A stretch of DNA of 63,084 nt, counting the filler, from Nemertoderma westbladi (Eukaryota > Animalia > Xenacoelomorpha), in the NCBI GenBank assembly GCA_032718475.1. It is 3 parts of 3 records of this genome, joined end to end, with 100 filler letters (N's around TTAATTAATTAA, not from the genome) between each part and the next. Parts side by side here need not be neighbours in the genome. Positions count along the whole stretch, not along the records: positions 1 to 21,709 come from JAUCBJ010005686.1; 2 more parts are not named here. One strand, given 5' to 3'. The position numbers and the translations under genes were made by a program. The notes under the pieces are model-generated. The model was not told the origin of the DNA, did no database searches, and saw nothing but the letters and a program-made list of their open reading frames with translations. Shown piece after piece: positions 6,404-63,084 of the stretch (positions are counted from its first letter, which is position 1; every line of letters begins with the position of its first letter).

Positions 6404-7897
6404 TGTTGCCGTTATTCCCGACACCATGGGGGAAAACGCCGATGCTGAAGGCGGAATTTTTCAGACCATGGAATCCCGGCCAGTCACCGGATATTGGTAA
6501 TGGAGAAGGAATACGTTCTTAAATGCAAGATTGCGGTTGAGGAAAAGCTGCATTGGTTGGATATACTCTTTAATGTAACTTCCCTACAGTTGAACCTTGA
6601 TTGAGAATAAGTTGGGTTTCCCCAAACCAATATACACCAAATTATTCACAATAATATAACACGACAATATAAATCCTTACAGTATATTATTTAATTACCC
6701 ACTGTTCGCTCAGATTTTAGCCTAACTAATGTTCCCCGATTTTCCCTCGGTCCTAGTCTTGGTGCCGTAGTGTCGGTGTCGGTCGACCCTGTTGCGTGTC
6801 CGTCCCACCCCTCACGAACCCCGAAGGGATCGGTCATCGAGAACCAGTACGGCTTGGCTAAGGGTCGGTCCAGTCGGTAGACTCTGTCGCGTATCCGTAC
6901 CACCCCTCCCGAACCCCGAAGGGATCGGTCATCGAGAACCAGTACGGCTTGGCTAGGAGTCTGTCATGTTGGTGGACCCGTTCGCGTGTCCGTCCCACCC
7001 CTCCCGAACCCCGAAGGGATCGATCATCGAGAACCAGTACGGCTTGGCTAGGGGTCCGTCAGTTCATCGCAGAGACCCAACCACCTAGGCTTTCCGAGTC
7101 CTTATTCAGGCTCCTAGTCGCTTCGGCAGCCGAGAAACTGCTCCGAACAGTCGGTAGGCCAGTAGAGTCCAGTCCTTTGTCTTTCGACCTCGTTACGTGT
7201 CCGTCCCACCCCTCACGAACCCCGAAGGGATCGATCATCGAGAACCAGTACGGCTTGGCTAAGGGGTCTGTCGTCGGTTCCCGTCGCAAATCCCTGGCAC
7301 AAGCAGCAGACTTTCCGATGTCCTTTTCAGGCTCGTAATAACTGCTGTTGACCAGGGACCGCTAAGGGCAGTCCTCGTCAAACTCTTCCTCTGTTAGTCG
7401 GTCGACCCGTTCGCGTATCCGTACCACCCCTCACGAACCCCGAAGGGATCGGTCATCGAGAACCAGTACGGCTTGGCTAGGAGTCTGTTGTCGTTTCCCG
7501 TCGCAAATCCCTGACACAAGCAGCAGACTTTCCGATGTCCTTTTCAGGCTCGTAATAACTGCTGTTGGCCAGGGACCGCTAAGGGCAGTCCTTGTCCTTT
7601 AGACCTAGCGAGTTACCAAATCCACCTCTACAGGCAGCAGGAAGTTGGCTAGGCCTAATAGTAATCAGGTAAACCTGAATACTGCTTAACTTTGTCTCCC
7701 ACCCCTGGCCCTTATATACATGAAATGAGTCCCGTACCCTGTAAGTCGCCCCAATATTCGCCCATAAATCGCCCCCAGTTCATTGAATGTGCCCAAAACC
7801 CATGTTCCCGCACCCAGTAGTGATATCGGAATAATCATTTTAAATAAATCCAAAAAATATTCAACTCGTGTTATGAAAAGTTGAAATACCGCAAACA
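6404..7897 (-). repeat. 3' LTR of family-1 element (~1.5 kb, subfamily b)
   Basis: Minus strand reads TGTTTGCGG...CGGCAACA; preceded by PPT; TATATAAG at about 7711-7718; internal ~75-bp repeats. Confidence 0.85.
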
Positions 7898-7908
7898 GTC
7901 CCCCCCAA
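7898..7908 (-). promoter_or_regulatory. polypurine tract (PPT)
   Basis: TTGGGGGGGAC immediately before the TGT of the 3' LTR. Confidence 0.8.
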
Positions 7909-8069: not shown

Positions 8070-10450
8070 CTATTTCTTTCTCTGATACGCCTTTCTCCTC
8101 TTCGCCCGTCGACTCTCGTCGATCGCTAGAGCTGGTAGGGGAGCATCGACATCCATCGTGAGCAACGTTTCGGCTTGTCTCCTGGCGGCTCTTCCTTTCG
8201 ATGGCAACGGGATCATATCGGTTCGTCTTTCCAACTCGGTGTTGCGCGCTTCTAGGAACCACTTTCCGTCACCAAACTCCTCCTTATACGAATATAAGCG
8301 TCTAAGGACCTCGAATGGGCCGAATAATCCGGCACTTAGCAACAGATCCACGTAGTGGAATGGTAACGTCGCTGTCGTGTGGAGGCGTTCCGGGAAGGAA
8401 AAATAGCCGCACGCCATTTCCTGCGCGATATTTCGAGCATTTCTCCGCACTTTGGTCTTTATGTTGCTATTTGCGTAGGTTTCGAACATGACCATATTTC
8501 CCATAGCGGTAACGTCCTTTGTAGGACATTTTATATTGCAGCGGGGGCTAGCGGAATGTCCACAGAAACCGCAAGTTGTGCAGAGGTTATAAAGGATTGG
8601 ACAAACCGAGACATCATGCCCCGATGTCGCGTAGTATGGGCAATACAGTATCCCAAGGAGCTGTAGACACGAATCGGTTACTCGATTTCTTCTACCGCGT
8701 GGGCACTGCTCCGAACCGCAGTCTGCGCATATCTCCAACTGCATCTCTCGACCGGGGAATATCGGAATCGGGACGCCGACGTAATACTCGAGTCGTCGGT
8801 CGCTCTTCTGAATATTCGCTGTGGCCGGTAGCCCGCGAAAGGCTGGGCTTAGACGTAGTAGGTTCTTGTTCCGATAACCTTCTTTATGTCCCGCCGGTCT
8901 CATCTCGGACGACCGTTTCTGGCGGTGGATCCATTTGGTCTGCTAGGCGTACCATCGTGTTAGTCGCATATGTCACCGAAGTCGTTCAAGGTGGAGGTAG
9001 TGACTAACTCCCTCGCGGGTTTCCGGAGCCAAGTGGGGTGGAAGCACCCGCCTCCATCGCAGGTTCGGCCGAGGTAACCCGTTTGGCGGCCAGTTCGTAC
9101 GCGGCTTCTGGCTCGAGTTGTCGCTTCGGAGTGGATAGTAGAACGCCTTCCTGTAGCCATAATTCTTCCCCTTCCGAGGAAATCAGTGGCTCTTCCGCAC
9201 CGAGGAGATCGGTTATCGTAGGGATGTCGAACGGCCCATTCTCGTCCCAAGAATCGATAACGGTGAGCGTTTTTGTCTCTCCCGGTGTAATATTCTCGAC
9301 CGCTTTGAACGCGTGGTTTATAACCTCGTTCCAGTCGTAGTCGACAAAGGAAAGAGGAACCGCCGTAATGAGGTTGTTGAGAGTTTTACATATGAACTTA
9401 GCGACGGTGTAGGACTCCATAACGACGTAGATGTAGTTCTGTTGATCTGGATTCTCCCACCTTTGGTGTATCGTCCACTTTCTTTCCACATCCTTCCATC
9501 GACCCTCTCGCTCTCTCTTTATTTCCAATCCCGGGTATCCACCATATATCTTATTATAGTCCTGGAATTTCTGGGGTTTAAAGTCGATGCCGCCGTTTAG
9601 CACAGCGAGGTAGCCGATACCGGATTTCGTCTGTCTCACCTCGCGGAATCCTCGCATGAATTCGGCGGACCGTAACCAGGCTAGTAGTGTCTGGGTGTCG
9701 ACGCAATGACTAATGGCATTGATATCTCCTTTACGGTCTCTGCCTAAAGGAGCGTTCGCGTAGTCGTTCCGGACGTCCGCTTTTATATCCGACCCGATTT
9801 TAATGATGTCGAAGTCGAAGAGGATCTTTTGGATCTCCGGAGGTAGTAGCCAGATCGCTCCGGCTGCCTGCACCTCCTGTCTGGGTGTCGGAAATATTTG
9901 ACACACCAATACCAAACCGTCCAGGGTTCCAAGGACGACGACCAAGGATCGACCGTATTCTTTCGCCCCGTACTTCTCCTGGTAGTCGTCGCGATTCTGG
10001 ATGATCGATATACGTTCCTCCCGCAGCGTTGCTGTACACTCCGCTAGGTTTCCCCAGTGGGCGAGGTACGTACTCTTGTCGTCGACGAAACTTTGACATC
10101 ACGCCAATGTCATCGCTTTCGAGGTGGGCATCGCGTTTCCCTCGTTGTCGTATATCAAACATCGGGATTTGTAGACGCTTTGCCAAAACGTTTCCCAATA
10201 CGACAACTTGTCCCCTCCGGTCGCCTTTGCGTTCCGAGTTCTTTTCAGTCTCGTAATTGCATCGGACAACCGGAGGGGTCGTAGATTCTGGGAATCCGGT
10301 CCCTCTCGCCCGGAGAATTTGACGACTCGCACGTTCTCATTATCAGGGCGTTCCAATTCGTATCAAAGTTAGGGGATCCAGGTTGTGGATATTCCAGTAA
10401 TAATCTATCGTATTACGTAATTCGCCGATAATTTGGCTATTTGGGTCCAT
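8070..10450 (-). pseudogene. Accessory ORF3 of BEL family 1: DEDDy 3'-5' exonuclease (WRN/EXD/Mut-7-like) plus Cys/His zinc-finger domain; disrupted
   Basis: ORFs 10099-10356 and 9004-9945 share a frame with one TGA between them. ExoI LIYDNEG, ExoII LPPEIQKILFDFDIIKIGSDIKADV, CVDTQ, putative ExoIII W...YVVME. 8070-8903 has CxxC and YCPY..H....CP.....CTTCGFCGH. Confidence 0.8.
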
Positions 10451-11682: not shown

Positions 11683-14600
11683 TTAAACGGGTTTAGCATT
11701 GTCACCAATGTCTGCAGCAGGATCCTGAGTAGGGAACTTATCACCTCTCGTAGAGTCACCGCTGTCATTGCCTTCAAGAAGGCACAGCCTCTGGATAGGG
11801 CGTTGGTAGTGGCCCTTTGCCGTTCGTATCGTCACAGTCCTCGCAAGTCCGTCTTTGCTCGGTTGTATTGCCATGACTCGCGCCACAGGCCAGTGGACGC
11901 GGTCTTTGAGGTCTTCTTTCACTAGCGCCATGTCGCCAACTGCGACATTCCTGTAGGTGTTGTTCCACTTCCTCCTGGTCCGGAGGGTTATGAGGTACTC
12001 CTGGGCCCAGATTCTCCACCAATGCGCTGCCAACGCTTGGGCCTTCTTCCAGTTAGTATGTCTCGCGATATCGTCGGGATCCGGAAACATCATTTCTGGA
12101 AGAATATGGGTTTTGGGTCTCCCCAGTAGGTGGTTAGGAGTGAGGGGCTACAAATCTGTGGGGTCGTCGCGGATAGGGATGATGGGCCGGTTGTTCAGGG
12201 TAGCCGTGATCTCGCAGAATGTTGTGCGGAGGGTGTCATTACTAAGTCGATGAGTTTCTCCCATACCCCGCTCATATGGGGTGCTAAGGGTGTTTGGAAG
12301 TGCCACTGTATATGGTGGTCCTTCCAGACTTGGGATGCGGTGTCCTTGGTAAACCATCCCTCGATCGCTTCTCTAAGTTCTCTTTCTCCTCCCACAAAGT
12401 TTGTACCATTATCGGAGTACATATGATGACATGTCCCATTGTTCGCCATGAACCGACGCAGGGTGTTGATGAATGCGTGTTGCGTAAGGTTCACCACAAT
12501 GTCTAGGTAGATTGCCATAGACCTTAGGCAGGTAAAGATGGCTCCCCAGCATTTGATGTTGGATCGTCGCTCGATGACCGTGAATGGTCCGAAACAGTCG
12601 ACTCCGGTTACATAGAACGGTGGGGAATCAGACTGTAGACGTGTGGCGGGTAAGTCGGCCATCTTTTGTGTGAGTGGTGGCGCTAGATATCTTCTGCAGG
12701 GAAAGCAACGTTTCAACACTTTCCGGATCAGCGGTTGGATGTGGGTGATCCAATATCTTTGACGTATATTAGCTATAATCCAGTTCTGTCCCGCGTGATA
12801 GTTTTCCTCGTGACACCGTTGGATTAATAGCTTGGCTAGTGGCGACGTTCCGGGCAGAAGCTCTGGGTATTTGACCTCGTACTCGACCGGGGCGTTTGCC
12901 ATCCGGGTTTTTAGACAAATCAATCCGTCCTCTCCCATCATTGGTCTCAATTGGTAGACGGGGCTGTCCGGTTTCAAGGTCTTGCCCGCACTGAGTTGTT
13001 CCCACTTGTTGGGGAAACTTACTTTCTGGACATATCTAACGATACATTTCTCCGCAATGATAAGTTCTTGTATACTCCGTCGAACTATCGATTTGTTGTT
13101 CTTCCACCGCAGGAAGTTGCGAAGGGTTAATATGTGGTGGATGAGGCGTTTCATCGATGAAGTTCGCTCGATCAATAGTTGTAAAGACGCCGCTGGTTGG
13201 ATGATAGTCACGACGTTATAGTGCCTGCCCGAGTCCTTTGCAGGCTCGGTCAGGCAACTATAGATTTCCACTGCGTGTCTTCTATGGACTTTACGGATCT
13301 CTTTGTCGGGATCGAATCGGGTACTCCAGGTCAATTGTGGCTGCTGTAGGAATTCCAGGCCTGTATGCCAGAGTTTACTTTTACCGAGTTGTTTTGGGGT
13401 GGCGCCTCCCCTGGATAAGTCCGCTGGATTTTCCTTCCCGTTCACATGGTGCCACTGTTCTCGGCCGGTGCACTGTTTTATCTCCGTGGCTCGGTTCGCT
13501 ACGAACGTGTTGTGGCGTCGTGATGGAGAGTGGAGATAGTAGAGAACGATACTCGAATCGACCCAGAAATGTTGCGATTCGATGGGGATTCGTAGGTTCC
13601 GCATCACCATGCGGTTCTGTCTCACTGCCCAAACTGCGGCCTGTTACTCGAGTCTCGGGATCGTTGCTACGAATTCTCCGGATACTGTCTTTGCCTTAGC
13701 AAATAAGAAGCTTGTGTCGCCGTTTCCATCTTGACTTAGCCTTCTTAGGAAGGTGACTACGCCGATTCCGGTATTTGAAGCATCTGAGAAAGTATGGAGC
13801 TGGGAGATATCGGTGGGTAGTTTATCAAGGAAGAACGGTCGAGGGATCCGCATAAGGTGTAGATGTTCGAGTTGTTCCGTCCACTTTCTCCATTTGACGC
13901 TTAGGTGTGGGGGTAGTTCTTCGTCCCATCCCAGTCCTTCTATCCACATTTCCTTGATTAAATTCATTCCGGCCTAGGTTACCGGGGATATAAAGTTTAG
14001 TGGGTCGAATATTGCACTTTTTATGGACAAACATCCCCTTTTCGTCATGGGCTTGGGTAGGGGGTTATATTTGAAGATGAATTCATCCAATTCTATGTCC
14101 CACTCAATGCCGAGTACACGGTGTTCCACATCCTCGGAATACATTTTATTGTTGTCCAGTCGGATTTCCTCCGGAAACATTTCCATAAGTTTCTTATCAT
14201 GGGATCTGAACTTGACGAGAGGGAAACCTCCTTTCTTTAAGCATTCCACCAACCCCATCGCCAGCTGATATGCGTCCTCAACATTATCGGCGCCAGCGCA
14301 TCCGTCGTCCACATAGAAGCATCGGCGGATGGTCTCTATGACGGTTGGAGGGAACTCGTTTTCACACATAGTTGCCGTTTTCTTTAGCATGTCACTACAT
14401 GCTACCGGTGAGTCCTTAGCGCCGAAGATCCTGACGATCATGCGCATTACGTCTACATCCTTCAATGTGAGTTGACTTATCTCCTGCGGGTTTAATATTT
14501 TATCCGTCCATAATATATGCAGACAGTCTGAGTCTCTTGGTAGCGTTCGGACCTGGTGAAACATAGATTTGATGTCGCATGTGAATGCTATCCGATTTTC

Positions 14601-15155
14601 CCTGAACCTGATCAACACGCCAATAAGTGTACTGTATATGTTGGGCCCTGTGTAGAGTTGGCTGTTCAGGGATTCGCCTTGATACATAGCAGCAGCATCA
14701 TTTACTACTCGGATTTCCCTGCCCTTCAGGGCTTCTACCACGTAGTGGGTAGGGAGATAATATGTCCGTCTGCCCCCTTGTAGTTCATTCCGGGGTACCA
14801 TTTCCGCCAGTCCGTCCTCTAGATATCCTTTGATTACGTTATTATATTTCTCTTTTATCTCGGGTTGGTCATTAAACTGGCATAGGATACCTTTAAGCCG
14901 CCTAAGGGCCATGTTGGCATTATTCGCCATCGGTTTATCTGGGTCTTTCCATAACATGGGCGAACACCAATGTCCATCTTGAAACGTGGCCTGATCCAGG
15001 ATGTCGATACAATATTGATCTTCCTCGGACGGGTTCTCGTCCTTTTTGGCGAACTCTTGGGTCTCTAGATTAAAGTATTTTGTCATCTCCCGCTGAGTTT
15101 TCTCGGTCTCAAGAAACAAATCCTCGTCAAGGTCTGTAGCTGAACAATAACCCAC
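11683..15155 (-). pseudogene. pol: BEL/Pao pol (RT, RNase H/peptidase A17 region, integrase, DUF5641-like C-terminus), broken by stops and frameshifts
   Basis: RT FTCDIKSMFHQV and FYVDD; HTFSDAS; integrase H..H..CFPC, GVDCFGP, YSDNGTNF; C-terminal HWPVARV..DGLAR. Confidence 0.95.
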
Positions 15156-15205
15156 GGAGGTTGCATTCTCTTTAATCTGACATTTAGGAAGGTATGTATA
15201 GGTGT

Positions 15206-18200
15206 CTATAGTTTCCTCCTTGATGCCGCAGAGTGTCCAGCCCTAATCGTTCGTTCAGCGTAGAAGCCGTCATCCGGATTTACAGATCGGGCGACGTCTC
15301 CAGTGGGTATGTGCAATTCCGGTGTGTCGAGTCCGATCAATAGGGTGATGTGCTTTACGTCCAATGGTGGGCACCTTAGGTCTACATCTTCCCAGTCTAA
15401 CTGTATGAGAGGGGCGTATTCGGCAGATTGTCGGAACCGCACTCGGAGGTCGGTATGTACCAAGGCGTTCCTGATTGTTAGCTTAACCATCTCATAGCCC
15501 TTCATGAATCCTTCCATCCGGAGCTGCACCTCCCCGGAGTCTACTTCTCTATGATCGGTGATGGTTTGTATGGGCTGTTTGCAAGGCTCGTAGTCTAGGC
15601 CGAGTTGTTCGAGGAAATCCCGGTCGATGATGATTCCGTCCGACCCATTGTCGAGGAACGCGAGCGTTGTCAAGGATTTCCCGACCCCTTGAATTCTTAC
15701 TGGGATTACCTTGGCGAAGACCATGTAACGGCGATTTATAAGGTTGATTGTGGCTGAGATATTTGTCACTCGTGATACATCGGAGGAGGTCTTAAACGGG
15801 TTGGTTTCCCTCCGTTGAATCGTCCGGGTTCCTTTAGAAACGTGGTTCGTTTCTCCCCTTCGTTTGGCTTCGATCCGAAAGTGGAGGGTGGTGAAGTCAA
15901 AGTTCGCGGGGATGTGGAAGAGTGTGTGATGACGTAGGTCATTACAGACCGCAAAGCACGATCTTTGATCGCAATCCCGAACATAGTGACCTGTTCCAAG
16001 ACACCGGAAACATCCTCGGTATTTCATTATCGCCTCGAAGCGTGGTACGAGTTCGGCGAACTGGAACTTTCTGCAGAATTCCACCTTATGCTTCTCCCCG
16101 CAGAAGAGACAGAGGAGGGAGTTTGTGGTGCCTTCCCTTTCGGGTGCCCAATTCTCAAGATAACATGCCCATTCCTCGGGTGATGTCGGTTCCTCGTAGT
16201 CCTCGTCGTTGGAATCCTTGGCCATTGTGATAGCCATCGTACTCACCGGAGGGGGACGGAATCTCGGTTTCTGAGTAGGTGTCCTGCTCCTGGAGTTGTT
16301 CTCTATTCCATCTAACTTGGCGAGACTTTGCTTGGAGAACATCGAGTCATTCATGGCTTCGGAGATGTCATCCAGGAATGCTGACATTTCGAGGAAACTG
16401 GGATCTCGATCTGGGTGTCTGCGTCGGAGATCTACGCATTTATACGCCCATTTACTTTGCAACCATCCGGGGAACTTTCGGGCGATCTGCCGGAAGTTTA
16501 GAATGTTGTTGACTTGTTCCTCCCTATTTAACGGTTTTAGAGTGTAGTAGGCATCCTTCATGGAATCCGAGAACTCCTGGATATTCTGTGGGTCCCCTAG
16601 GGATCCTGCGTCCTGTATCAGTTTCTCGAGAGTTTTATTAATTATAGTCCCGGTATTTCCGTATCTTTTGTCGAGGGTTTTCCATGCGTCGTAATATGCT
16701 TTATGAGCTCCTCCCTCGAAACATGCGATAATTCGCGTGGTTTGTCGCCCAGGTATTGAGATAAATATACCAGTTTTTGTGCGTCGGCTATATCTGTTGA
16801 CCCAATCTGGGTGAAGAACCGTTTTTTGAATCTGAGGTAATCGACGGGGTCTCCTTCGAAGGTGCGGATCTCCACCTTGGGCATGGCCAGGCAGTTTTCC
16901 AATGCCCAGATAATGCCGACGTCATCTGAACTGGAACGACTATGAGGATTATAGTTATTGGCGCTCTCTCCCATACATGATGGATCGACGAGAGGTGGGG
17001 TTTTAATGATGACGCGGTTATGGGTTTGTGATATGGATGTAAACGGGTTGTTGGATCGAGGGGTAGCGTCCCGTTCCGAGTCCTTTTCAGGCTCGTACGT
17101 GGGCACACTCGGGACAGTGGTGTTGGCTGGGAGATAAGGTTCCTCATTCTTAAGCATAACTGGTGGGGGGTGGAATACCGGTGCTTGTGCCGATAACGTA
17201 GACTGTATGGTAGGCGGGAACTCGGGTTTTGGAGGTTTTGCCGCCGGTGGTGTAAATGACTTTTCTAATTCTGGTATCGGGATTGGTTCGTAGTTCTGTT
17301 CTATACCCCTCTCCCAGTCCTCGTATAGTTGAATATCCCGTTCTATAAGTGCGGCTTCGTATTCCGCGAGTTTTGCAATATCTGCATTCTTTTTATGGAT
17401 AAGGATCGCCTGGGCCTCGGCGTGTTGTTTACGCATTTCGGCTTCTCGTTTTCGTTGTTCGATTTCCTGTTCGGCCTCTCGTTTTCGTTGTTCGATTTCC
17501 TGTTCGGCCTGTCGTTCGGCCTCCTGTTTGCGTTGTTTGGCCTCTTGTCTACGTTGTTCAGCCTCCCGTTCGCGTTGTTCGGCCTGTCGTTCGGCCTCCT
17601 GTTCGCGTTGTTTGGCCTCTCGCCTACGTTGTTCAGCCTCACATTCGGCCTCCTGTTCGCGTTGTTTGGCCTCTCGTCTACGTTGTTCAGCCTCACGTTC
17701 GCGTTGTTCGGCCTGCCGTTCGGCCTCCTGTTCGCATTGTTTGGCCTCTCGTCTACATTGTTCAGCCTCCCGTTTGCGTTGTTCGGCCTGCCGTTCGGCC
17801 TCTTGTTCGGCCTCTCGTTTTTGCATTTCGGCTGCTAATACATCTTGCTCGGCTCGCAGTTGAACAAACTCATCTTCCATCCGAGCTTTGAGGGCCAATG
17901 CCTTCTGTTCTCGTAGCTGATCTCGGAGTGGCTGACCCCCTTGAGAACTGCGTGTTGAACCGGCCGCCTCGCTCCTAGCGCTGGAGTGCTGGTTCCTAGA
18001 GGACCCCGTTCTCTTTCGATGTATTGCTGTCCTGGTACTGGAGGTTCGCACCGATCCTGCATCTGTTCTTTCCGCCCTCTTATAATATTGCTCCTCGTAG
18101 CCTCTCACTAGGCTGAGGGTCCTCCGGTGTTGTTTCCTGAACTCATCTAGATGTACAACGTGTTCTTCTAGTCTGGGGTAGTTTACCTGATCGGTAGCGG

Positions 18201-18459
18201 GGATGAGTTCTTGATACGCCTGTATCATCCTCTCATATCGTTGTAAGATACTTCGAATATTCTGAAGCTGAGTTTGTATCTCGTTGAGGGGGGTTTCGGC
18301 TCCCTTGAGTTGTTTCTCTATACGTTGATACGCTCGAGTGACCCCGCCCTTGAGAGCGCCTAGTCGACGGGTCATGTTTTTGACGTTCGGTACCTCATCG
18401 GCTTCCGAGTCTGTATGGGTGTCCATCTCGTCGGTGTCGGAGACGTTGTTCGTCGTCAT
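15206..18459 (-). pseudogene. gag: BEL/Pao gag-protease, frameshifted near 16640-16700
   Basis: Coiled-coil N-terminus, DUF1759-like FEGDPVDYLRF, three zinc knuckles (CLFC..H..C, CFRC..GH..C, C..HHTLFH), protease AFLDNGS. Confidence 0.93.
17440..17830 (-). repeat. In-frame tandem repeat in gag encoding (EQEAERQAEQR.REA)n coiled coil
   Basis: Repeated DNA and peptide units within ORF 16642-18459. Confidence 0.9.
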
Positions 18460-18647
18460 TCTAGCGCCTCGTTGATAGCTAGATATTCGATGTCGTAAAA
18501 TAGCTCCTCGTAAGTCTCGTACTCAGCTTGGATTACCCGTACGTTAATTCTGAATCGTCCGACGTTTGTTCCTTGTACTTCAACCTCGATGTGCCAGATT
18601 CCTGGCTCAACTTGGATTATGTCAATAGGTGTGATCGATACTTCCAT
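18456..18647 (-). CDS. 63-aa upstream ORF overlapping the gag start (ATGA)
   Basis: Intact ATG-started ORF whose TGA overlaps the gag ATG. Confidence 0.4.
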   Translation of the reverse strand: MEVSITPIDIIQVEPGIWHIEVEVQGTNVGRFRINVRVIQAEYETYEELFYDIEYLAINEALE

Positions 18648-18825
18648 TCCCTGTTAACGACTCTTATATGTGATCTGCCGACTACGAGTTTATAAGATCG
18701 AGTTTGTTGATTAATTAAACCACGGCTTTGTCTTAACTCAAATACCAGAGTTTCCTCGTAGTGGGTGCTGGGTAAGCACGGAGAGAGTTTGAAGAGTATT
18801 GTAGGATTCCCAACTTTGGAAAATT

Positions 18826-19656
18826 GAAAAGGATTCGGAAAGCCTGCTGATTGCGTCAGGGATTTGCGACGGGAACTGACAGATCCTTAGCGGTCCTTGG
18901 TCACCGGCAGTTATTACGAGCCTGAAAAGGATTCGGAAAGCTTGCTGACTGCACCAGGGACTTGCGACGGATCGACCGACTTGACGAAGGAAGGGTTCGA
19001 TGAGGACTGACTTCATGGAGTGACTTCCTACTGAAGCGACTATGAGCCTGAAAAGGATTCGGAAAGCTTAGGTGGTTGAGACCCTTCGATGAACCGACAG
19101 ACCCCTAGCCAAGCCGTACCACTTTCCTGATGACCGATCCCTTCGGGGTTTGGGAAGGGTGGGACGGACACGCAACAGGGTCTACCGACCTGACCGACCC
19201 TTAGCCAAGCCGTACCGCTTTCCTGATGACCGACCCCTTCGGGGTTCGGGAAGGGTGGGACGGACACGCAACAGGGTCGACCGACACCGACACTACGGTA
19301 ACTGGACTAGGACCGAGGGAAAATGGGGATCATTAGTTAGGTTAAAATCTAAAAGCGAACAGTGGGTAATTAAAAATAATGTACTGTAGGAATTTATATG
19401 TTCGTGTATTATTGTGAATATTTGGTATATTGGTGTGGGGAAGCCCAAATTATTCTCAATCAAGGTTCAATCAGAGTTTAAGTTACATTAAAGATTATAT
19501 CCAACCAATGCGACTTTTTTCTCTACTGCAATCTTGCATCTCAGATAAGACTCCTTCTCCACTGCCAATATCCGGTGACTGGCTGGAATCAAGTGGTCTG
19601 AAAATTCCGCCACCAGCATCGGCGTTTTCCCCATGGTGTCGGGAATAACGGCTACA
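18826..19656 (+). mobile_element. BEL family-1 LTR (subfamily a), 5'-truncated, inverted relative to the adjacent internal domain
   Basis: Near-identical to 4868-5699; ends GGCTACA; followed by a short remnant of the same microsatellite. Confidence 0.85.
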
Positions 19657-39351: not shown

Positions 39352-40995
39352 CCTGTGGGAATTCGGGGTCTCTGCATGACAGATGAATGTAGGTTCTGTC
39401 TACAAACGTCCTTAAAAATGGCGAATCCAGAGCTGTCCAACTTCTCAGCAGCTGAGTCTCTTAAGCTGAGCTTGGTCAAAGCGCGGTCCTTGAATTGACT
39501 ATCAACGTTGCGGAACGGAGTCAGAAAGCGCCTAAAGCATTCGAATCGAATGAATTTATTGTGTTCATCTAGCTTGGCGAGTTTGGTTCCAAGCAGTAAG
39601 GGATGAGCGCGTATAGTGCGACTTCACACATCGGCTAGCCAACCGGCAAGTGTGGTGTTCTCAAAGATAGTATATATAGCTAATGAGGGATGGAGTGGAA
39701 CACTCATAAAGCTATAGACGACGCCAGGTGCGGTTAATGGTCCGTCAAAATATAATCGAGAATAATGATCTCCATATATTTGTTGGTAGCTGACAGGGTT
39801 TCTGACTTTGAAATTCCATCCGTATTCTTGGAAGGCAAGATGTCCGATAGAGGTTCGTTGTACTTTATTGATTCCGCTTGATGTATTAGCATACATAGTT
39901 TGGAAGAAACCTCGGCCTTCTGCCCAGGGAGCAATCAGCTGGGTGTCTTACGAAAGGATATGGGATATTCTCCATGTTTCTGAAGTCATTTAGGAGATCT
40001 CCATAAATAGCTGAGCCGATTTTAAGGATTCTCTCGTCAAACAGCATCTCGAGCACTGGCTGGGGTAGCATAGATCCATCTATACCCATGGCCGGTTTGC
40101 GCTCGGTATCGGTAACATAACGCTGCGCAAGTTCGAATTGTCCATGTCGGAGTTTCTTTTGGATCACTGTGAGAGTCTCAAAAGAGTAATCGATCACGTC
40201 GGAACACGCTCGAGTAAACACATGGGCAGAACCAGTTAGTCCACATATGTGTATCATTCGCGTAGTTCCCAGTTCTCCAACCGGAACGCTACCTTCATTA
40301 TCATAAGTGACAACTCCATACATTTCGATAACGTTAAGAGTTTCGTTCCACTCTTTAGTGGCGTTTTCTATGGTCATACCCACTGGATGCCATAAGGTGC
40401 GTAAGTTCGCTTGCGTTAGGTAGATCGCTATACTTCAGATAATGTGTATTATAAGTCTCTGCATCTCCGTATCGCTGTATTCTCTCTTCCTCGAATAATA
40501 CGTTGAGATTCCAATGGACTAATCGAGTTTTAATAAATCCATCAAAATTATATGGAGGCATTATGTCCTTTTCTATTCTTGAAACATTATAAGGTTTTCT
40601 AAATGGGTTTACTTTAACCAATTGATCTAGATGTTTCTGTAGTTGTTCGAGTTCGACAAGATCCAGGGGGTTTATCAATGGTAGAAACCTTAAACTGTGC
40701 GTAGGATCTTCCGGTTTCACCATATAATATTGGGTTAAATTGACATAATAAGGGTGGTCTTTGATCCCATAAAATGAGTTCGGTAAAGGTCTAGCGCGTA
40801 GGTTGACCTCGTGTACCATACGACGGACAAGATCCGCTCGATTGTCCGGATGTTCAACGAGTATATCGTTGACACGAGCGGCCTCGATTGGCGGACGTTG
40901 TAACATAGGAGCATCAGCGATAAGATCTCTAGATCTTAAATTGATATCAACCGGTTGGGGTTGTACCGTGGCGAAGAGTTTGTCTCCGAAATGGG
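39352..40995 (-). pseudogene. Family-2 ORF3, distal part: DEDDy 3'-5' exonuclease domain
   Basis: VVTYDNEG (ExoI), LPQPVLEMLFDERILKIGSAIYGDL (ExoII), TSIGHLA...NFK...YQQIYG; aligns with family-1 ORF3. Confidence 0.82.
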
Positions 40996-46659: not shown

Positions 46660-47235
46660 TGTGACGGGATCCGTGGACCCCGATTTATCCGTGTGGGTTT
46701 TCCTATCTACACGTCCCCACCGTGTGTGTGAAAAGGTTCTTTAAGGGTTCCAAAGTTCCTGTTTGATATGAAGGTATATGGTAATATGATATAAGCACAA
46801 TTAATCAGGGTTAAAGTAGTTACCGGTAAATAGGTATTACATATAGTGGCGGTAGCGGACGGTGATAGAAGTCACCGTTCCACCCTACTGAACTGACTGA
46901 GTAAACTGAGCAAGTAACACAGTTACCGATAATATATATTGCACGGTTGGCCGCATTATCCTACTCAGCCGATGCCTCCCCCCCATTGGCTAATAACCCT
47001 GTTGTCGCCCTTTGCCTCTCCTGGAGGGTTTCCCTTTGCCCTGTTACTCTCTCTCTCTTTCAAGGGTGTAACCCCTGACCCCTATTGTGTGTGTGTTCTC
47101 TGGGGCCTATTGTCCCCGTTTACTGGGGTGACACGAGGTTGATATTGGTAATCAACCTCGTGCTCCCAATATTGCTTAGAGGCGCTCTTTCCCACTTTAT
47201 GGGGGTTTGGTGAGGCGGAATTGAATCCGCTCACA
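46660..47235 (-). repeat. 5' LTR of the nested element
   Basis: Direct repeat of 40996-41571. Confidence 0.95.
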
Positions 47236-48716
47236 ATGGGGAACCATCGAAGGATGAATGATGATTTTGGAATAGAGATCAGTCATAAGGATTTGAGCTT
47301 CTGGCTGGGCTAAAGCTGCTTCTTCTCTCTCATCCATTTCGATATGTTTCTCCTCGAGCTGATTTTCCTCCACTTGTCGTTGGAAGCGTTCGTCCAAAAA
47401 CTCTTGTAGAGAGTAGGTTCGTCCAAGTTCGATATCTTCTTCGAGATTCTGGATTTCCCGATCGAACTGGGATAAAGCTAATTCTTTTACCGCTTGGACT
47501 TGTTGTTGCAATTTACGTTTGTCTAAACAATCGTAGGTTCCTTTTCCGATCTTTTGTCGAATAGCGTATAACGCGTTTCGTACAACGCTCTCCTCCACCT
47601 CGGTGACGGGTTGAACCAGGACGATTATACGGGTTGAACGGCGATATTAGAAGTCCGCATCCCAATCCGGCTAGGTAGGATGGGCGAATATCTAGGGAGT
47701 CCACAACCGGAGTGCCACCAACTAATTGTTCGGGTAACACTAGATCTTTGAACAATGAGTACAACTCTGGAGGATCCGTCATACTATCCCAGGATACTAT
47801 CTCATACTATCATAGGATCAAGAGTCTGAGGTCTCACCAGGGAATGAGGAGGTCTGTACGAGTATTCCGGAACTCTGATCATAGGTTTATTTAAGGATTG
47901 TTTGAGTCGAGCGAGCGTAGGTGATACGTCGAACAAGTTTCGCTCAAAACTCCCGTAAGTATAGCGAGTAAAACTGTATTTAGCGCAACGTCTCTGCGGA
48001 TGTTTATGTCTTTCCGTTTGTTGGTTGGGTGTAGGGCATTCATCGCAGTAATACCAAAGACGCACATCTTGTAGGGGGAATGCTGGTGATCTTTCTCCAG
48101 TTTTACAATATTCCTCTATCTGTTCGAAGCTATCCGGTACAACAGGTAGCGGTCGATCGGCGGTAAGATACATCATAGTAAAATAGAGTCGTTTGAGTTC
48201 TATCATAGGGTTATGATATATACCTTGAGGATATCGAGTTTCTAGATTTTGTTGACTGGCTACATTGAGATAAGTTTCTCTCAAGAATTCCAAATAATAT
48301 TCGTTGAAGTCACTGCGTTTATCCGATGCTTCAACATCTTCTCTTTCGAGTCGGTTTCGAATAGAATTTTCATGTTCGATTCTCAGTTTATCATTCCGAC
48401 TCTGCTGGGTATGATATTTAAATAGAATCATTTCCTGTTCTGTATCTACATCGTCCGTGTCGTGTAAATCGATAGCATGACCAGTAGTTAAGAAGTCCAT
48501 ATACGTACCATTACGATGCATATAGCGCGCAGTGAATTTTCTATAGTCCAATTCATGCGTGAGCTGTTCCTTTGACATTGGCAGTTCGATATAACGGCTA
48601 TCGTCTTCCGTAGTATGTTGACTACCGTCGCCGCTTATTAAACTATCAACAAACGCTTGCAATGGTAGGGTATATCGCTCCCTGATACCAAGATCATCTT
48701 CTATTAACTCAGTCAT
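47236..48716 (-). pseudogene. Family-2 ORF3, proximal part (unknown N-terminal domain with CDEC...H...C motif and coiled coil)
   Basis: ORFs 47802-48716, 47513-47782 and 47197-47598; removing the nested element joins ...PSMVPH to FGDKLF...MLQRP (40906) in frame. Confidence 0.72.
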
Positions 48717-50768
48717 AGCTGCTATATGAGTTTATTGATATTAGAGTTATGTAATAATTAGGCTAGCGGTCGTCGCTGCCTCCCCCTCAGTGCCCCCGGA
48801 CAGCGCAAGATCCTCAGCGCAGATGTACTGTCGTCGCTGTGCCTCTCACCAACGTAGTAGCTACACAACGACAACAGTAACCAGCACGAGTCACTCCACT
48901 GTCCGTCCCAAGGGCTTAGATTTACTGGAGGTACTTGCTACAGAGGCAGGGTAACTTTCACAACTGCGACTCGCTACTGTAAACACACTTTAGTAGTAAC
49001 ATTCACCTATAAATACACAAATTCCACATTCTTGTCACAATTGGTACAAATTCGGGCCATTTGTCCGTTAGTAGTCAAATGCTTTCCAGAATGCCACATT
49101 ATTATTATGTATCCCTATGCTATTTATGTATCCCTATGCTATTTATGTATCCCTATGCTATTTATTCCGCATGCTATTCAATGGGGCAAGCTTTCTATTG
49201 TTCTTTTAACTCGCTTCTAATTCTAGTGTGGTTGTTGCTATGGTGACATTATGGAAAGCTAGCGGTAGAATTAGGGTAATTCTCATGCATACAGATCTGG
49301 GATGCTATTTAATAGAGATTCTTTAATTGTCAATATTCCCCTTATACATGATTTTATGAATTTTATCGGCTATTGACTGTACACTGGAGATTCTCTCACA
49401 CTAATATACTTAATAGGGTGAATCTCCGCTCCCATGATCTATTAATTAATGGAATTTTGGGAATGTTATAAATTGTATAAAATGACAATTTATCAAATTC
49501 ATGAGAGGATATGAATTTAAATTTATTCCCATGAATTTTATTATTTGTTATTAAATAAACACAATTTTATTCCAGAACATGTCTGGGGACTAGGATCCTT
49601 AATTCCAGAAATTTGTCTTTTAAGAGTATCGGTAAGTGCTACGATATCTTAATAGACTAGAATTTTAGAGGATCTAAAGTTTTAACAGACTTAATTTATA
49701 ACCTTTCTATATTTTAACATTTGTTATAAAAAACGTTGTAAATATTTATCAAATATTTAATATTTAATATTTAGGATGGGCACCAATTTATTCCAGAACA
49801 TGTCTGGGGACGTTAACCACTGATTCTAGAATTTTGTCTTTCAAGTATATCAGTGGGTGCCGCGATATCTTAATCGACTAGAATTTCCGATGGTCAAAGG
49901 GTTTAACAGATTTATTTGAAGATTTATTAACAGATTTGTTTGATAACATTATTTATATTAATAATGTTTGTTAATATTTTGAACTTCAACGCTACTGTTA
50001 AATGGACATCATTCTACTTTGTTTGGACCCATTTGATGACATTTGATGCATGCAGGAAGTTCTTTTTTGAGTCATTGATCTTTCATCAATGTGTTATATT
50101 GTTATAAATTTCATTATGGTGCATCGCGATGGCACAAAATTTCAACCCTCTTGGGATCCGTGAAGATATAGACGAAATTGAAAGAAATTTTCTTTGCCTT
50201 ATTTTTTTTACCATTTGGCAACTTTTGTGCACCGGTAGAACAATGAAATCGAAAAAAAGTAAAAAACGCACCGCCCTATCTACTATATGTATTATTTAAT
50301 ATATGGTATGAGAGCAATATTGCATGAAGTAATGTCAGTGAGAAGAGGCAAGTCGTTTCCAAGGTCTACCCAGAGCTTGGTTTAGCCGAGACACGAGGAT
50401 CTGAACTTTGCATTCCTAATACTCTACTTACCAATAATACTTGAGTATAGTAGGGGCAGTATATTGTACTTTTAATAAGTACGGACATTTCGTATTACTG
50501 TAGTCACGTATTTATAGTATGATACGGACAGTAAGGAAAGAGAATATGAATTATTTCTCGCCATTAAACGAAATATATTATACTAAGTAATTAAGTAATA
50601 AAACATGAATATATTGCACTAATCTACTGAATAATCGTTAAAATATTATTCTACTAAATAAAATTAAAGAAAACGATTATAATATTAAAATTACATAATA
50701 ATGCATACATAAGTATAAAAATAAAAAAAAAATAAAATAATGTAGTCATACACCCACTCCAAACACTG

Positions 50769-53700
50769 TTACGTTGGGGATTCACTAGATGTTTGTTGGA
50801 TTAGGGAGGTGGTCGTGGAAAGAGTCTCTTGCCTTCCATAGTTACCGGACAACTCTCGGTCTCTTTCCAGCAAACATAAACGACCAACTGGGCGATTAGG
50901 TTGTTGTGTTTCGAATACAATTCCAGGTTTCTTAAAGTTACGTCTCATGACGACGAGTTCTAACGATCGCACTAAACCATCATCGGATATATGAGTCTCG
51001 ATGATACGACCTTGTCTGCCACCTCTTACGTGGAAGATCTGATTCCACGATAAGGACCATGTTTCCGGCACTGACGTTTTCTTGCTGCGCAAACCACTTT
51101 GTTCGGAGTTGTAGCATAGGAAGATAATGTTTTTCGAAATGGTCAGCGAAAGGATGGGATAATAACTGCATAAGTTGCCAAGTTTGTCGGCAGTATTCAT
51201 CTCCGTCCATGATTTCAGATTGAGGGAGCATGGCTACAGGTTTCTTTAGTAGGAAATGCGTGGGTGTTAGCGCTTCTAGGGAGTCGGGACTCGATGAGAC
51301 TGGCATAAGCGGTCTCTTATTAAGATAGGCGGCGATTTCTTCCATTAACGTCCGCAAAAGTTCGTCGGTGAGATACGCGCGGCATGGCACTATAAAGTGA
51401 AATGCAGTCTTCACGCTTCGTATTAGTCTCTCCCAACTTCCTCCCCACCAAGGGGCGTCGGCGGCGTTGAAGGTCCAGCTTGATGCTGTTACCCTTAGCT
51501 GATTGTCCACCTGTCTTTGGTTCCAATCTTTCAGGTAAGCTTTGATCTCATTATCGGCAACAATGAAGTTCGTTCCTTTGTCGGATCTCATAGTGTTGCT
51601 AGTCCCAAAACGAGCGATCTGTCGGCGTAAACTCAGTATGAAGCTGTTGGTAGATAGATCGTTCACCATATCTAGATGGATCGCTCTACAAGTCATACAG
51701 ACAAAGATGACACACCATCGCTTGACTATAGTCCTAGCACGATATACTTCAATAGGGCCAAATAAATCCACACCAGTATTAGTAAAGGGTGGTTCATAGA
51801 AGCTTACTCGTTCCCAAGGTAATTCTGCCTCTCGCTGTGTTAAAGGCCTACTAAATGCTTTCCTACAGGGTATAACAGTTCCTAAGAACTTGGTTTAGAG
51901 CTCTACGGGGCTTATGGAAATAATAGCGAGTTCGAATTTCGCTAAGAACTCGTTCTCTACCAGCATGGTAAAGTCTACTGTGAACATCTACAATCATCTT
52001 GATTTGTATTTCAAGATTTCTAATGAGTATGGGAAACTTAGTGTCAAAGGACAATGGAGCATTAGTTAATCTCCCTCCGACATGTATTAACCCATCTATC
52101 ATTGTGCTAGAGAAACAATCCCTTAAGCGCATCTGTGGATTTCTCAACAACAGGAAATACTTATCGGAACCTTCGTAGCATTGCAGGAGTCTCAGTATCT
52201 GCTTATTGGTATCCTCATGTTCTTGGTAACTGATCTTCTCAGTCAGAAACCTATCAGACACTCTATAAGTGGGAAGGTCTTTAATAGCATGGACCCTTTC
52301 AGATACTATTGGAGCGGTATCACTAGCGATCTTCGTCCTGGAATAGTGATGATGGAAACATCTTTTCAGATATACAACGGCCTTGCAAAGCTGATTTCAG
52401 GAGCTATAATGATCTATTGCTCTTTGTAGGAGAGGGGAGAGTCCTTGCGAGACATCTGGTGTTCCAGATTTCTAGTCTCTTTCCCTGATTTCTATAACGG
52501 ATTTATTCGTATTTCTCGTAACATCCGTGGGTGAGTTTAGATCCACAGCGTCGTCACCAGAGGTGTGTAGTACAGACAGATCTATCACGGGTTTAAATAA
52601 CTTTGATTTACTCGTCCGGGTTTTAGGTTTGACTTTCTCCGCTCCCTTGGCTTGTCTAATCTCCGCCGTGGTGAGATGAGGGGGCCATTCCTCCTCTTCT
52701 TTACTCAGGAAGTCGGGTCCACCTAACCAGTCTGGAGTGTCTATCAATTCTTGAGGAGTGGCTCCTCTGGAAGCGATATCAGCTGGATTAATCGTCCCAG
52801 GGCAATGTCTCCATTGATCTATATTAGAGCGACTGAGTATAATAGCTACTCTGTTGGTAATGAAGATGCTGAACTGACAGACTTCATTTGTTATATACTC
52901 CAGAATGAGTAAAGCATCAGTCCAATAGACAGTTTTCTCCAGTGGATAGTCGATCTGTTCTGTTACGTTCCGGCCGATGGCTGTGGCGTATAGAGCCGCC
53001 TTTAACTCCGCTCTAGGAACTCGTAGTTTGTTGTTTATTAGGGCCTTATAGGCGACCAATGAAACCTTAATTCCATCCGGAGTTTCAACCCTCAGGTAGG
53101 CTACTATACCTATTCCCATATCGCTGGCGTCTCTAAACACATGGAGTTGATAGGAATACGTGGGGAGAACGTGACCAAAATATGAATGGGAGATCTTAAA
53201 GTTCTCGATTGATGGTAGAGAATCTTCCCATTTCATCCACTTCTTTAGCAGTTCTCCCTGGAGTGGATCATCCCACGAGTGGTTTTCGAGCCACATTTGT
53301 TGTACTAAACTCCGAGCAACTAATATGACTGGGCTAATAAATCCCAATGGATCGAAATAAGTGCTCAGGATACTTAGACAAATCCGTTTAGTTCTAACTG
53401 GATTATCTCGTTTTTTTAACTGAAAGAATAAGATATCTCTCTCCGTGTCCCATTTTAATCCAAGAGTCTTGGTTTCTGGAAGATCGTCCTTAATGAGGTC
53501 CAGATCTTTAACACCTCGGTCTTCTACCGGGATCGATTCCAGAAACTCACAGGAGTTACTAGTTAATTTAGTTAGCCGAAATCCATCGCGTTGCCAGCAC
53601 TCTACCGTTCCCTTGGCAACATCAATGGCTTCTTCCACCGATGGGAGGGACTTTAAATTGTCGTCCATGTATATATCCCGTTTGATGTTGTCGATAACCG

Positions 53701-55424: not shown

Positions 55425-55455
55425 ATCACTGAATTGGACAGTAGTTCGGGCTCAC

Positions 55456-61932: not shown

Positions 61933-63084
61933 TTAGTCCTTCTTTCGTGAACGGCGTTTACGAAGTTTTTTGAGGCTAGTAAGAGTCTTTCTCTCTTTGG
62001 GGCAAGCCACTTTACTAGGAGGGATATATCTCCTGGGTGAGGGGTGCAATACGATTGCATCGGAAGGTTTAGGGTTACGGTCGCTGTACCCGCCAGTCGA
62101 GGTACCCGGTTGATCGATATCAACCTCAGTAGAACGAGGTCGAACAACCTTTAGAGCGCGTTTCAAGACAGCAGCTCTAACTGGTCCCTGATGGGTCGTT
62201 TGCACAATTGCGGTAGGTTGACCGTGTATCGTGAGAAATTTCCTCGGTTTGATGGTTCTCTCCAACTCGCGTTCTCTGGCTTTATATTCATATGGTCGTC
62301 TATGAACTTCTTGTAGCTCTGGATGCGAGTTTATGAACAAGTCACCGTATTCCGGATCTTGACAGATGAAGTTGATCAAGTTATAGGAATTCAGGTTATT
62401 AGGATTAATATTCCTAAGATACTTGCGAACAAATTTAGTTGAAATATTCTCGCCAACACGCTTCATCAGCTCGTAGCTAGGAGTGCGAGATTTTTGCTCG
62501 ACGGAAGCAAAGAGATAAGGGTGAAACGCATAGACTCCTTCATAAGCACATCCGGGATAGTATCGATGACATGATTCGCAATGGAGATCCGCGTTAGCTT
62601 CCCAAGCTCTGATGTAATGCAGGGCAACCATTTCGTCTACGCTTTCTAGATCTCGGATGAAAGGGCAATAGAAACTTGCGTGTCCTTTAAACTGACAATG
62701 ATGACATTGAGTCATAAATTGAGGACAGACTGCGAAGATGTGGAGATTATTAAGTCTACAATACGCACAATAAATCTCCATAGCAGGTTGATCTTTAAAG
62801 TAGGAGCAGGGTACGCTGGAGTCCACCGGGGTAAAGTGATCTCGTGATGCACATAATCGGCAACGTTTCCTAGAAACATAATTGGCATGCCGATAATCGT
62901 ATGCTGTGAGACATTGTGGACCTTGATACCATTCCAGCACATAATCATTGTCGCTGCTCCTGGGCGCTGTGGGTTGAATCTCCTCAGACTCCAAGCAAAT
63001 TGGTTCGTCTTCCAATTGCATAACTGAGGTAGGTGTAGCTGTTTCCTCAAGTGAACCCACTGTTTGAACTTCCACAATAGAATA
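61933..63084 (-). CDS. C-terminal Cys/His zinc-finger part of ORF3 of an upstream BEL copy (open, cut by the window edge)
   Basis: CRLC...H, YCAYC...H...VCP.....CHHCQFKGH....C matches the pattern of 8070-8903; stop lies ~80 bp before the LTR. Confidence 0.75.
   Translation of the reverse strand, partial: YSIVEVQTVGSLEETATPTSVMQLEDEPICLESEEIQPTAPRSSDNDYVLEWYQGPQCLTAYDYRHANYVSRKRCRLCASRDHFTPVDSSVPCSYFKDQPAMEIYCAYCRLNNLHIFAVCPQFMTQCHHCQFKGHASFYCPFIRDLESVDEMVALHYIRAWEANADLHCESCHRYYPGCAYEGVYAFHPYLFASVEQKSRTPSYELMKRVGENISTKFVRKYLRNINPNNLNSYNLINFICQDPEYGDLFINSHPELQEVHRRPYEYKARERELERTIKPRKFLTIHGQPTAIVQTTHQGPVRAAVLKRALKVVRPRSTEVDIDQPGTSTGGYSDRNPKPSDAIVLHPSPRRYIPPSKVACPKERKTLTSLKKLRKRRSRKKD

What the first reader, a model, noticed from the sequence alone, without database searches (positions are those of the whole stretch)
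8070..10450. BEL/Pao retrotransposon carries a DEDDy 3'-5' exonuclease-zinc finger gene in the env position
Seen: between integrase and the PPT lies a roughly 780-codon same-strand frame with only a few stops and frameshifts. It has WRN/EXD2/Mut-7-type motifs (YDNEG; LP..I..ILFD..IIKIG..I..D; VDTQ; GIGYLA) followed by a multi-Cys/His domain. Established: the BEL ORF3 slot is usually empty or env-like. As I recall, captured DEDDy/RNase D domains were reported in some nematode and bdelloid rotifer LTR elements, but I know of no exonuclease-CCHC fusion of this architecture. Inference: it may trim or proofread cDNA/RNA, or antagonise small-RNA silencing, since Mut-7/Nibbler and EXD1 relatives act in piRNA pathways.
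Basis: partly seen in the sequence, partly recalled or inferred. Interest (0 to 1): 0.85.

Follow-up and report, generated by a model that had tools for sequence, protein, structure and literature searches.

The report
BEL/Pao retrotransposons carry exonuclease–knuckle gene
Two distantly related BEL/Pao jumping genes in this stretch of DNA carry an extra, here broken, gene for a predicted 3'-5' exonuclease (joined to zinc knuckles in the main element), which likely trims RNA to help the element spread; such genes were described before in other jumping-gene groups of rotifers.

Summary
Observation confirmed. A 2,381-base same-strand gene (10450-8070) lies between pol and the polypurine tract of a BEL/Pao element. 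This copy is broken in three places.

Its pieces hit no Pfam family on their own. An intact 648-aa natural relative (P0003) matches both halves (pairwise E 8e-17 and 1e-9). A profile of P0003 plus the window pieces aligns to bacterial PF01612 exonucleases with probability 95% (score 56; shuffles at most 17). The C-terminal half holds three CCHC-type knuckles like retroviral nucleocapsid. All three versions keep four acidic active-site positions, with E in place of D in motif III.

It is not a one-off capture. A second BEL element in the window, 35-40% identical in pol, carries a related exonuclease frame. Thousands of divergent contigs from other runs cover the region, and 14 of 22 listed variants are synonymous (p=0.001, selected subset).

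No fold model, intact genomic copy or RNA was obtained, so activity and target are inferred. DEDDy ORF3s are known from rotifer Juno/Vesta LTR elements; my searches found none in BEL/Pao. Verdict: new variant of a known kind.

The parts
8070..10450 (-). Extra ORF (ORF3) of BEL element A: exonuclease, acidic linker, three zinc knuckles, basic tail; broken in three places
10102..10362 (-). Piece A (87 aa), holding Exo I motif YDNEG (D at 10149)
   Evidence: spacing to the upstream helix matches element B and P0003 by eye; not significant alone against the reference profile
9007..10098 (-). Piece B (364 aa): Exo II (KIGSDIKAD, 9801-9775), DTQ, GIGYLA, Exo III (YVVME, 9429-9415), then an acidic linker
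   Evidence: (E 8e-17 to P0003)
8073..8942 (-). Piece C (290 aa): three Cys/His knuckles from 8729, 8642 and 8582 (the first two deviate from CCHC in this copy), a conserved aromatic region, and a basic tail
   Evidence: (E 1e-9 to P0003)
7898..7906 (-). Polypurine tract GGGGGGGAC
   Evidence: inferred from position and sequence
6404..7897 (-). 3' LTR of element A (TGTTTGC...GGCAACA); the start at 7897 is inferred from the PPT and the TG, as no second copy in the window covers 7897-7783
11686..16921 (-). pol of element A, in several broken frames: end of gag, protease, RT, RNase H (Peptidase_A17), integrase, DUF5641
16645..18522 (-). gag frame of element A; the element's own 5' LTR is missing
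18825..19656 (+). Partial LTR of a sister subfamily in the opposite orientation, at the place of A's lost 5' LTR; 97.7% identical to the LTR at 4629-5699 and about 85% to A's 3' LTR
39352..40995 (-). Exonuclease-bearing part of the extra ORF of BEL element B (YDNEG, KIGSAIYGD, DTQ, SIGHLA, YTIFE); cut by an assembly gap at 39351
47235..48731 (-). Upstream part of element B's extra coding region, separated from the rest by a nested LTR element with target duplication ATGGG; no Pfam family
50772..55451 (-). pol of BEL element B, 35% (RT region) and 40% (integrase) identical to A's pol
61936..63084 (-). Third knuckle-bearing frame with a basic tail, weakly like piece C; cut by the window end, context unknown
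   Evidence: (pairwise E 2e-4)

Best explanation
This is a broken copy of an extra gene that lies between pol and the polypurine tract of a multi-copy BEL/Pao family and encodes a predicted DEDDy-type 3'-5' exonuclease joined to three nucleocapsid-like zinc knuckles, which likely acts on RNA to help the element, most likely by trimming or destroying the short RNAs that silence it. Shown: the position, BEL/Pao identity, homology to an intact protein of the same two-part build, many divergent copies, and a related exonuclease frame in a second, distant BEL lineage. Predicted from sequence profiles: the exonuclease fold, and an active site of D and E (Exo I), D (Exo II) and Y-x3-E (Exo III). Inferred: (1) intact copies make the protein separately from Gag-Pol, from a spliced or subgenomic RNA, because an AT-rich 1.2 kb gap separates it from pol; (2) the knuckles hold single-stranded RNA and the basic tail aids binding or nuclear import; (3) the nuclease removes 3' nucleotides; (4) the targets are silencing small RNAs or their precursors. 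Step 4 is the weakest.
For: BEL/Pao markers DUF1759, Peptidase_A17 and DUF5641, in the order PR-RT-RH-IN. P0003 is the only credible hit of 2 among 1.84 billion representatives (E 7.7e-7; the other is a fibronectin-repeat protein) and matches both halves in order. Atlas features of P0003 residues 20-290 score 0.94-0.95, and all ten best family-bearing hits share a family or clan, the listed one being PF01612 (on 50% of that cluster's members). hhalign of alignment A3 against 19 bacterial PF01612 domains gives probability 95.3 and score 55.9, with Exo I and Exo II in register; the best of 100 column shuffles scores 17.4 and the reversed alignment 14.4. Exo III matches by eye the reference P-L-x-x-D-Q-L-x-Y-x3-D. 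P0003's knuckles match HIV-1 nucleocapsid (E 1e-4). Selection: 14 of 22 listed variants in pieces A and B are synonymous against 31% expected, p=0.0014. A basic C-terminal tail is present in 3 of 3 knuckle-bearing frames. No envelope-like transmembrane anchor: the single hydrophobic stretch of piece B aligns with the exonuclease strands.
Against: Both structure predictions failed (pLDDT 33 and 34), so the fold is not shown in 3D. The window's pieces alone score weakly: piece B probability 39, element B's piece 4, piece A 0.2. P0003 reaches PF01612 only at E 0.2. Neither hhalign run placed Exo III on the Y-x3-E motif. The fourth acid is E, whereas every reference domain with a motif III has D. 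By eye, element A has about 55 extra residues between Exo I and the next strand. The selection test used only the 40 best-supported of 719 listed differences; piece C gave 4 of 9 (not significant) and the pol-end control 0 of 3. No intact genomic copy was seen and P0003's genomic context is unknown. Nothing here distinguishes small-RNA targets from other substrates. In rotifers the DEDDy ORF3 showed no clear link to copy number and no activity was shown (PMC5408684, passages).
Confidence: 0.4

Rival explanations
1. Replication helper: the nuclease is active but works on the element's own intermediates, trimming the 3' end of the genomic RNA or primer, or removing mismatched or untemplated 3' bases from the cDNA before strand transfer or integration. 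The knuckles would bring it into the particle as nucleocapsid does.
For: Knuckles are most like retroviral nucleocapsid. DEDDy enzymes include ssDNA and proofreading nucleases (PMC5408684 section 3.3). Earlier unchecked notes report self-primed BEL/Pao elements in other genomes, for which a primer-trimming enzyme would make sense.
Against: The BEL/Pao descriptions read list only gag, pol and sometimes env (PMC8742986 whole text), so the gene is not essential for the group. It is a separate ORF, not part of Gag-Pol. Element A's primer-binding site is lost, so the priming mode could not be tested.
Confidence: 0.3
2. Pseudo-nuclease: the domain keeps the fold but no longer cuts, and the protein acts as an RNA-binding decoy or adaptor, as Maelstrom and EXD1 do.
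For: D is replaced by E in Exo III in 3 of 3 versions, and element A has a large insertion after Exo I. Maelstrom and EXD1 are inactive DEDD derivatives (PMC5408684). Earlier unchecked notes describe dead exonuclease ORFs in other LTR elements.
Against: All four acidic positions and the Exo III tyrosine are kept in three proteins only about 30% alike, which is expected for metal binding and less so for a dead site.
Confidence: 0.2
3. Passenger: a host gene captured once and copied along without benefit to the element.
For: Both window copies with an exonuclease part are broken; no RNA or intact genomic copy was seen.
Against: It is present in two BEL lineages 35-40% identical in pol, shows an excess of synonymous variants, and has an intact relative of the same build. 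gag and pol of these copies are broken too.
Confidence: 0.05
4. The exonuclease assignment is wrong and the N-terminal domain is another fold.
For: No significant Pfam or PDB hit for the domain; failed folds.
Against: Profile-profile score 3 times the best shuffle, Atlas match, and three motifs in the right order and spacing.
Confidence: 0.05

Closest known systems
DEDDy-exonuclease ORF3 of bdelloid rotifer LTR retrotransposons Juno and Vesta, also in Athena/Terminon retroelements (PMC5408684: passages and section 3.3 read; PMC6431247: passages)
   Same: A DEDDy-type exonuclease gene downstream of pol in place of env, with an altered acidic motif and untested function; shared between distant retroelement lineages.
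   Different: The host elements there are Juno, Vesta (Gypsy-type by my recall) and Penelope-like, not BEL/Pao. The motif there is reported as DEED; here it reads D-E-D-E. The paper notes a Maelstrom-like Cys-His-Cys motif in two families, but no zinc knuckles ('zinc' has 0 occurrences). I had no rotifer sequences, so common origin is untested.
Belpaoviridae / BEL-Pao (PMC8742986 whole text; PMC3118150 and PMC13524379 passages)
   Same: Pol order PR-RT-RH-IN, BEL-specific Pfam domains, PPT before the 3' LTR.
   Different: The only third gene described in these texts is env-like. 'Exonuclease' does not occur in any of the three. Element A (about 12.4 kb without its 5' LTR) exceeds the stated 4.2-10 kb, and its LTR (1.49 kb) the stated 0.2-1.2 kb.
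PF01612 DEDDy 3'-5' exonucleases (EXD2, WRN, RNase D, Pol I proofreading domain; Mut-7 recalled)
   Same: Exo I DxE, the LP..L..LL.D..I.KvG segment with the Exo II D, the DT motif, and Exo III tyrosine plus acid.
   Different: Exo III acid is E; below the Pfam cut-off; fused to three knuckles; the nearest subfamily is not determined.
Dada DNA transposons with a DEDDy domain (PMC3706591, passages)
   Same: A transposon-borne DEDDy exonuclease proposed to process 3' ends.
   Different: There it is inserted within a DDE transposase of a DNA transposon, not a separate gene of a retrotransposon.

Membership tests
BEL/Pao (Belpaoviridae) | Pol order protease-RT-RNase H-integrase with BEL-type domains | tested here: met
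   DUF1759, Asp_protease_2, RVT_1 (weak, E 0.009), Peptidase_A17 (E 1e-21), Integrase_H2C2 and DUF5641 (E 8e-29) in that order
BEL/Pao (Belpaoviridae) | PPT of about 10 nt before the 3' LTR | tested here: met
   G7AC at 7906-7898, then TG...CA LTR
BEL/Pao (Belpaoviridae) | Two direct LTRs and a tRNA primer-binding site | tested here: inconclusive
   The 5' LTR and PBS are missing in this copy; an inverted partial LTR of a sister subfamily sits there
BEL/Pao (Belpaoviridae) | RT phylogeny places it within the family | not tested
DEDDy 3'-5' exonuclease (PF01612) | Profile match to the family | tested here: inconclusive
   Below the Pfam cut-off (P0003 11.9 bits against 23.6; window pieces none), but profile-profile probability 95% against shuffles under 1% and Atlas 0.94
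DEDDy 3'-5' exonuclease (PF01612) | Exo I DxE and Exo II D | tested here: met
   Aligned in register for P0003; present in elements A and B; A's Exo I is placed by eye
DEDDy 3'-5' exonuclease (PF01612) | Exo III Y-x3-D | tested here: not met
   Y-x3-E in 3 of 3 versions, placed by eye; hence DEDDy-like variant, not canonical
DEDDy 3'-5' exonuclease (PF01612) | RNase H-like three-dimensional fold | tested here: inconclusive
   Both predictions failed, pLDDT 33-34; no fold search was run on them
DEDDy 3'-5' exonuclease (PF01612) | Metal-dependent 3'-5' nuclease activity | not testable with these tools
   Needs an assay
CCHC zinc knuckle (PF00098) | C-x2-C-x4-H-x4-C repeats | tested here: met
   Three in P0003 (HIV nucleocapsid match E 1e-4); homologous in piece C, with deviations in this copy
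Rotifer Juno/Vesta DEDDy ORF3 pool | Clusters with the rotifer ORF3 proteins in a tree | not tested
env-like ORF3 | Transmembrane anchor or viral fusogen homology | tested here: not met
   No such Pfam hit; the only 19-residue window above 1.6 (2.13) aligns with exonuclease strands

The most novel reading that the evidence does not exclude
An old, unrecognised accessory gene of several BEL/Pao lineages encodes an active exonuclease with nucleocapsid-like knuckles that destroys or mis-trims the host's silencing small RNAs: a nuclease-based counter-defence carried by an animal LTR retrotransposon.
Probability: 0.27. Interest if true: 0.8.

Novelty: new variant of a known kind. Interest (0 to 1): 0.55.

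Why it matters
It extends enzyme-type third genes from rotifer Juno/Vesta and Penelope-like elements to the BEL/Pao superfamily, where the texts I read list only env. It suggests that exonuclease-plus-knuckle cargo is a recurring solution in LTR elements. The intact natural relative P0003 makes the open question raised in 2017, whether retrotransposon DEDDy ORFs are active and on what, directly testable. If the target is small RNA, it would be a transposon-encoded suppressor of animal RNA silencing.

Tried and rejected
No whole genome was held, so copies could not be counted or dated in an assembly.

Word-index protein searches found nothing for the read-through protein, only itself for P0003, and nothing for alignment A3; each covered a limited length range. 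P0002 was rejected as a fibronectin type III repeat artefact.

No related loci were found in viral contigs or JGI metagenomes. Plasmid and phage tblastn gave only E 6-10 matches; one was fetched and held no PF01612 match. NCBIfam and PHROGs gave nothing significant. PDB sequence search gave only DJ-1-like matches at E 0.13-0.52, rejected, and a RhoGAP at E 0.37 beside EXD2 at E 0.39.

Two folds failed. Atlas for piece C gave a best score of 0.85 (zf-CCHC on 29% of members), a lead only. No RNA holder was listed, which says nothing on expression. Contig depths were not used to rank genes. No single contig spans pol and the ORF. A closer look at variants in piece C was not obtained.

I considered and rejected (a) that the element has inverted terminal repeats, and (b) that the LTR at 4629-5699 is its 3' LTR: a PPT directly precedes the LTR at 7897-6404, and microsatellite separates the two.

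Literature: searches found no BEL/Pao exonuclease. Malik et al. 2000 on nematode elements was not held, and Repbase, GyDB and most subscription papers are not searchable, so absence in print is not proven. No supplements were opened; those of PMC3118150 (BEL element sequences) and PMC5408684 may bear on novelty. Five of 24 reference domains were dropped before building the profile as partial or weak matches.

Full report
Anatomy. Element A lies on the minus strand. A gag frame (18522-16645) is followed by pol in five broken frames (16921-11686) with DUF1759, aspartyl protease, RT (weak), Peptidase_A17, integrase zinc-binding and DUF5641 domains, which marks it as BEL/Pao. After a 1.2 kb gap with short repeats and an AT-rich stretch comes the extra ORF (10450-8070). 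It is followed by a G7AC tract (7906-7898) and an LTR from TGT at 7897 to GGCAACA at 6404. The element's own 5' LTR and primer-binding site are missing. In their place is a partial LTR in the opposite orientation (18825-19656), 97.7% identical to another LTR at 4629-5699 and about 85% to A's 3' LTR. The ORF is broken after its first 35 codons, at a TGA (10101-10099), and by a frame change with stops near 9006-8942. This copy is dead.

What the protein is. The window's pieces hit no exonuclease family in Pfam or NCBIfam, and nothing relevant by single-sequence PDB search; PHROGs gave one exonuclease row at E 0.13 for element B's piece. A full HMMER scan of 1.84 billion representatives with piece B returned 2 proteins. 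One is a fibronectin-repeat artefact. The other, P0003, is an intact 648-aa singleton from a 9,449-base ENA contig with no name. It matches piece B (28% over 138 aa, pairwise E 8e-17) and piece C (29% over 155 aa, E 1e-9) in the same order, so the two-part build exists unbroken in nature. Its C-terminal part has three CCHC knuckles that match HIV-1 nucleocapsid (E 1e-4) and, weakly, Air2 (E 0.064).

Evidence for the exonuclease. P0003's N-terminal part scores 0.94-0.95 in the ESM Atlas, with PF01612 as the family of the named hits (on 50% of that cluster's members). It reaches PF01612 at only E 0.2, and as alignment A3 reaches EXD2 at E 0.39. I fetched 24 bacterial PF01612 matches, dropped 5 partial or weak ones, and compared profiles. 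A3 (P0003, piece B, two pieces of element B) gives probability 95.3 and score 55.9 with Exo I and Exo II in register. The best of 100 column shuffles scores 17.4 and the reversed alignment 14.4. Alone, piece B gives probability 39, element B's piece 4 and piece A 0.2. In hmmsearch piece B scores 7.1 and 9.9 bits against best-of-500 shuffles of 3.2 and 5.7. The assignment therefore leans on P0003. Both structure predictions failed.

Active site. Exo I reads YDNEG in elements A and B and IDVER in P0003, with matching spacing to the helix before it (by eye). Exo II reads KIGSDIKAD, KIGSAIYGD and KVGSNIKAD. Exo III was not placed on this motif by hhalign, but by eye P0003's PLCHDQLYYIYCE is in register with the reference PLTEDQLRYAAID printed, and A (YVVME) and B (YTIFE) follow it. 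The set is thus D-E-D-E with the tyrosine kept; every reference domain with a motif III has D. By eye, A has about 55 more residues than the others between Exo I and the next strand. Conservation of these residues at about 30% overall identity suggests metal binding, but activity is not shown.

Not a one-off. (i) A second BEL element in the window, whose pol is 35% (RT region) and 40% (integrase) identical to A's, has a related exonuclease frame downstream of pol (pairwise E 8e-7 and 4e-5). A nested LTR element with a 5-base target duplication interrupts it, and an assembly gap cuts it before any knuckles could be seen. (ii) A third frame at the window end has similar knuckles and a basic tail (E 2e-4); its context is unknown. 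(iii) Contigs of 4 runs (at most 3 samples and 3 studies, one possibly the source) cover 30 of 30 bins of 7700-12300 in three runs and 28 of 30 in the fourth. In run X1, 4,530 contigs were laid, of which 887 are 99% or more alike and 671 under 90%. One contig of run X5, about 80% alike, carries both the exonuclease and knuckle regions with a linker of different length; another bridges the ORF end, PPT and LTR start. None spans pol and the ORF. (iv) Of the 40 best-supported differences shown (of 719), 22 fall in pieces A and B and 14 are synonymous, against 31% expected (p=0.0014). Piece C gave 4 of 9 (p=0.24) and the pol end 0 of 3. This is a selected subset and only suggestive.

How it likely works. 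I commit to an RNA-binding 3'-5' exonuclease made separately from Gag-Pol, held on single-stranded RNA by the knuckles and basic tail, and acting most likely on silencing small RNAs or their precursors (0.4). A role on the element's own RNA, primer or cDNA ends is close behind (0.3). A non-cutting RNA binder like Maelstrom or EXD1 is possible (0.2). Passenger status and a wrong fold are unlikely (0.05 each). Nothing obtained here discriminates among the first three. No RNA run was listed.

Comparison with what is known. PMC5408684 (passages and section 3.3) reports DEDDy ORF3s with a DEED motif in rotifer Juno and Vesta LTR elements and in Athena elements, says such domains had not been reported in retrotransposons before, and shows no activity. 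PMC6431247, PMC5718144 and PMC3706591 (passages) repeat this or describe a DEDDy domain inside Dada transposases. The ICTV profile (PMC8742986, whole text) lists only gag, pol and env for Belpaoviridae. PMC3118150 and PMC13524379 contain no 'exonuclease'. Ten searches found no BEL/Pao case; one older nematode paper was not held and Repbase and GyDB could not be searched. Unchecked earlier notes of this scan describe Gypsy elements with an Rrp6-like exonuclease and a knuckle in another genome, and none for BEL/Pao. If those notes hold, the fusion is recurring rather than unique.

Verdict. Real, family-wide, and apparently undescribed for BEL/Pao: a new variant of a known kind, with function untested. 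Interest 0.55.

Noticed in passing
window 40996-47234 (-): Young LTR element (LTRs 576 bp, 99% identical, target duplication ATGGG) with gag-like frames and a knuckle but no pol seen; nested in element B's extra ORF. Probably non-autonomous; the bases after its 5' LTR do not start with TGG.
   Followed up: partly
window 47235-48731 and 40358-40995 (-): About 700 codons of further coding sequence upstream of element B's exonuclease part, with no Pfam family: a long N-terminal extension or a separate unknown accessory gene.
   Followed up: partly
window 3830-6404 and 19657-19680: All three LTRs of element A's family abut a (CTGTTGTT)n microsatellite, which hints at target preference or at repeat growth from the LTR ends.
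   Followed up: partly
window 6404-7897, 4629-5699: The LTRs contain tandem subrepeats of about 95 bases, and their number differs between the two subfamilies.
   Followed up: no
window 17346-17860 (-): Element A's gag holds a long Glu/Arg/Gln/Ala-rich coiled-coil-type repeat; element B's gag has a similar AAAESERK repeat near 57550-57770.
   Followed up: no
window 11040-11410: Short repeated units in the gap between pol and the extra ORF; many contigs join across them in different ways. A possible regulatory region for the extra ORF.
   Followed up: no
window 27950-29760: GC-rich tandem array giving long low-complexity frames on both strands.
   Followed up: no
window 21118-21657, 24763-25416, 37482-38100: Several fragments of what looks like the 3' end of a non-LTR retrotransposon (by recall), two of them in inverted orientation at 97-98%.
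   Followed up: no
window 19960-21070 and 60717-61854: A 1.1 kb non-coding repeat, 83% identical, in opposite orientations.
   Followed up: no
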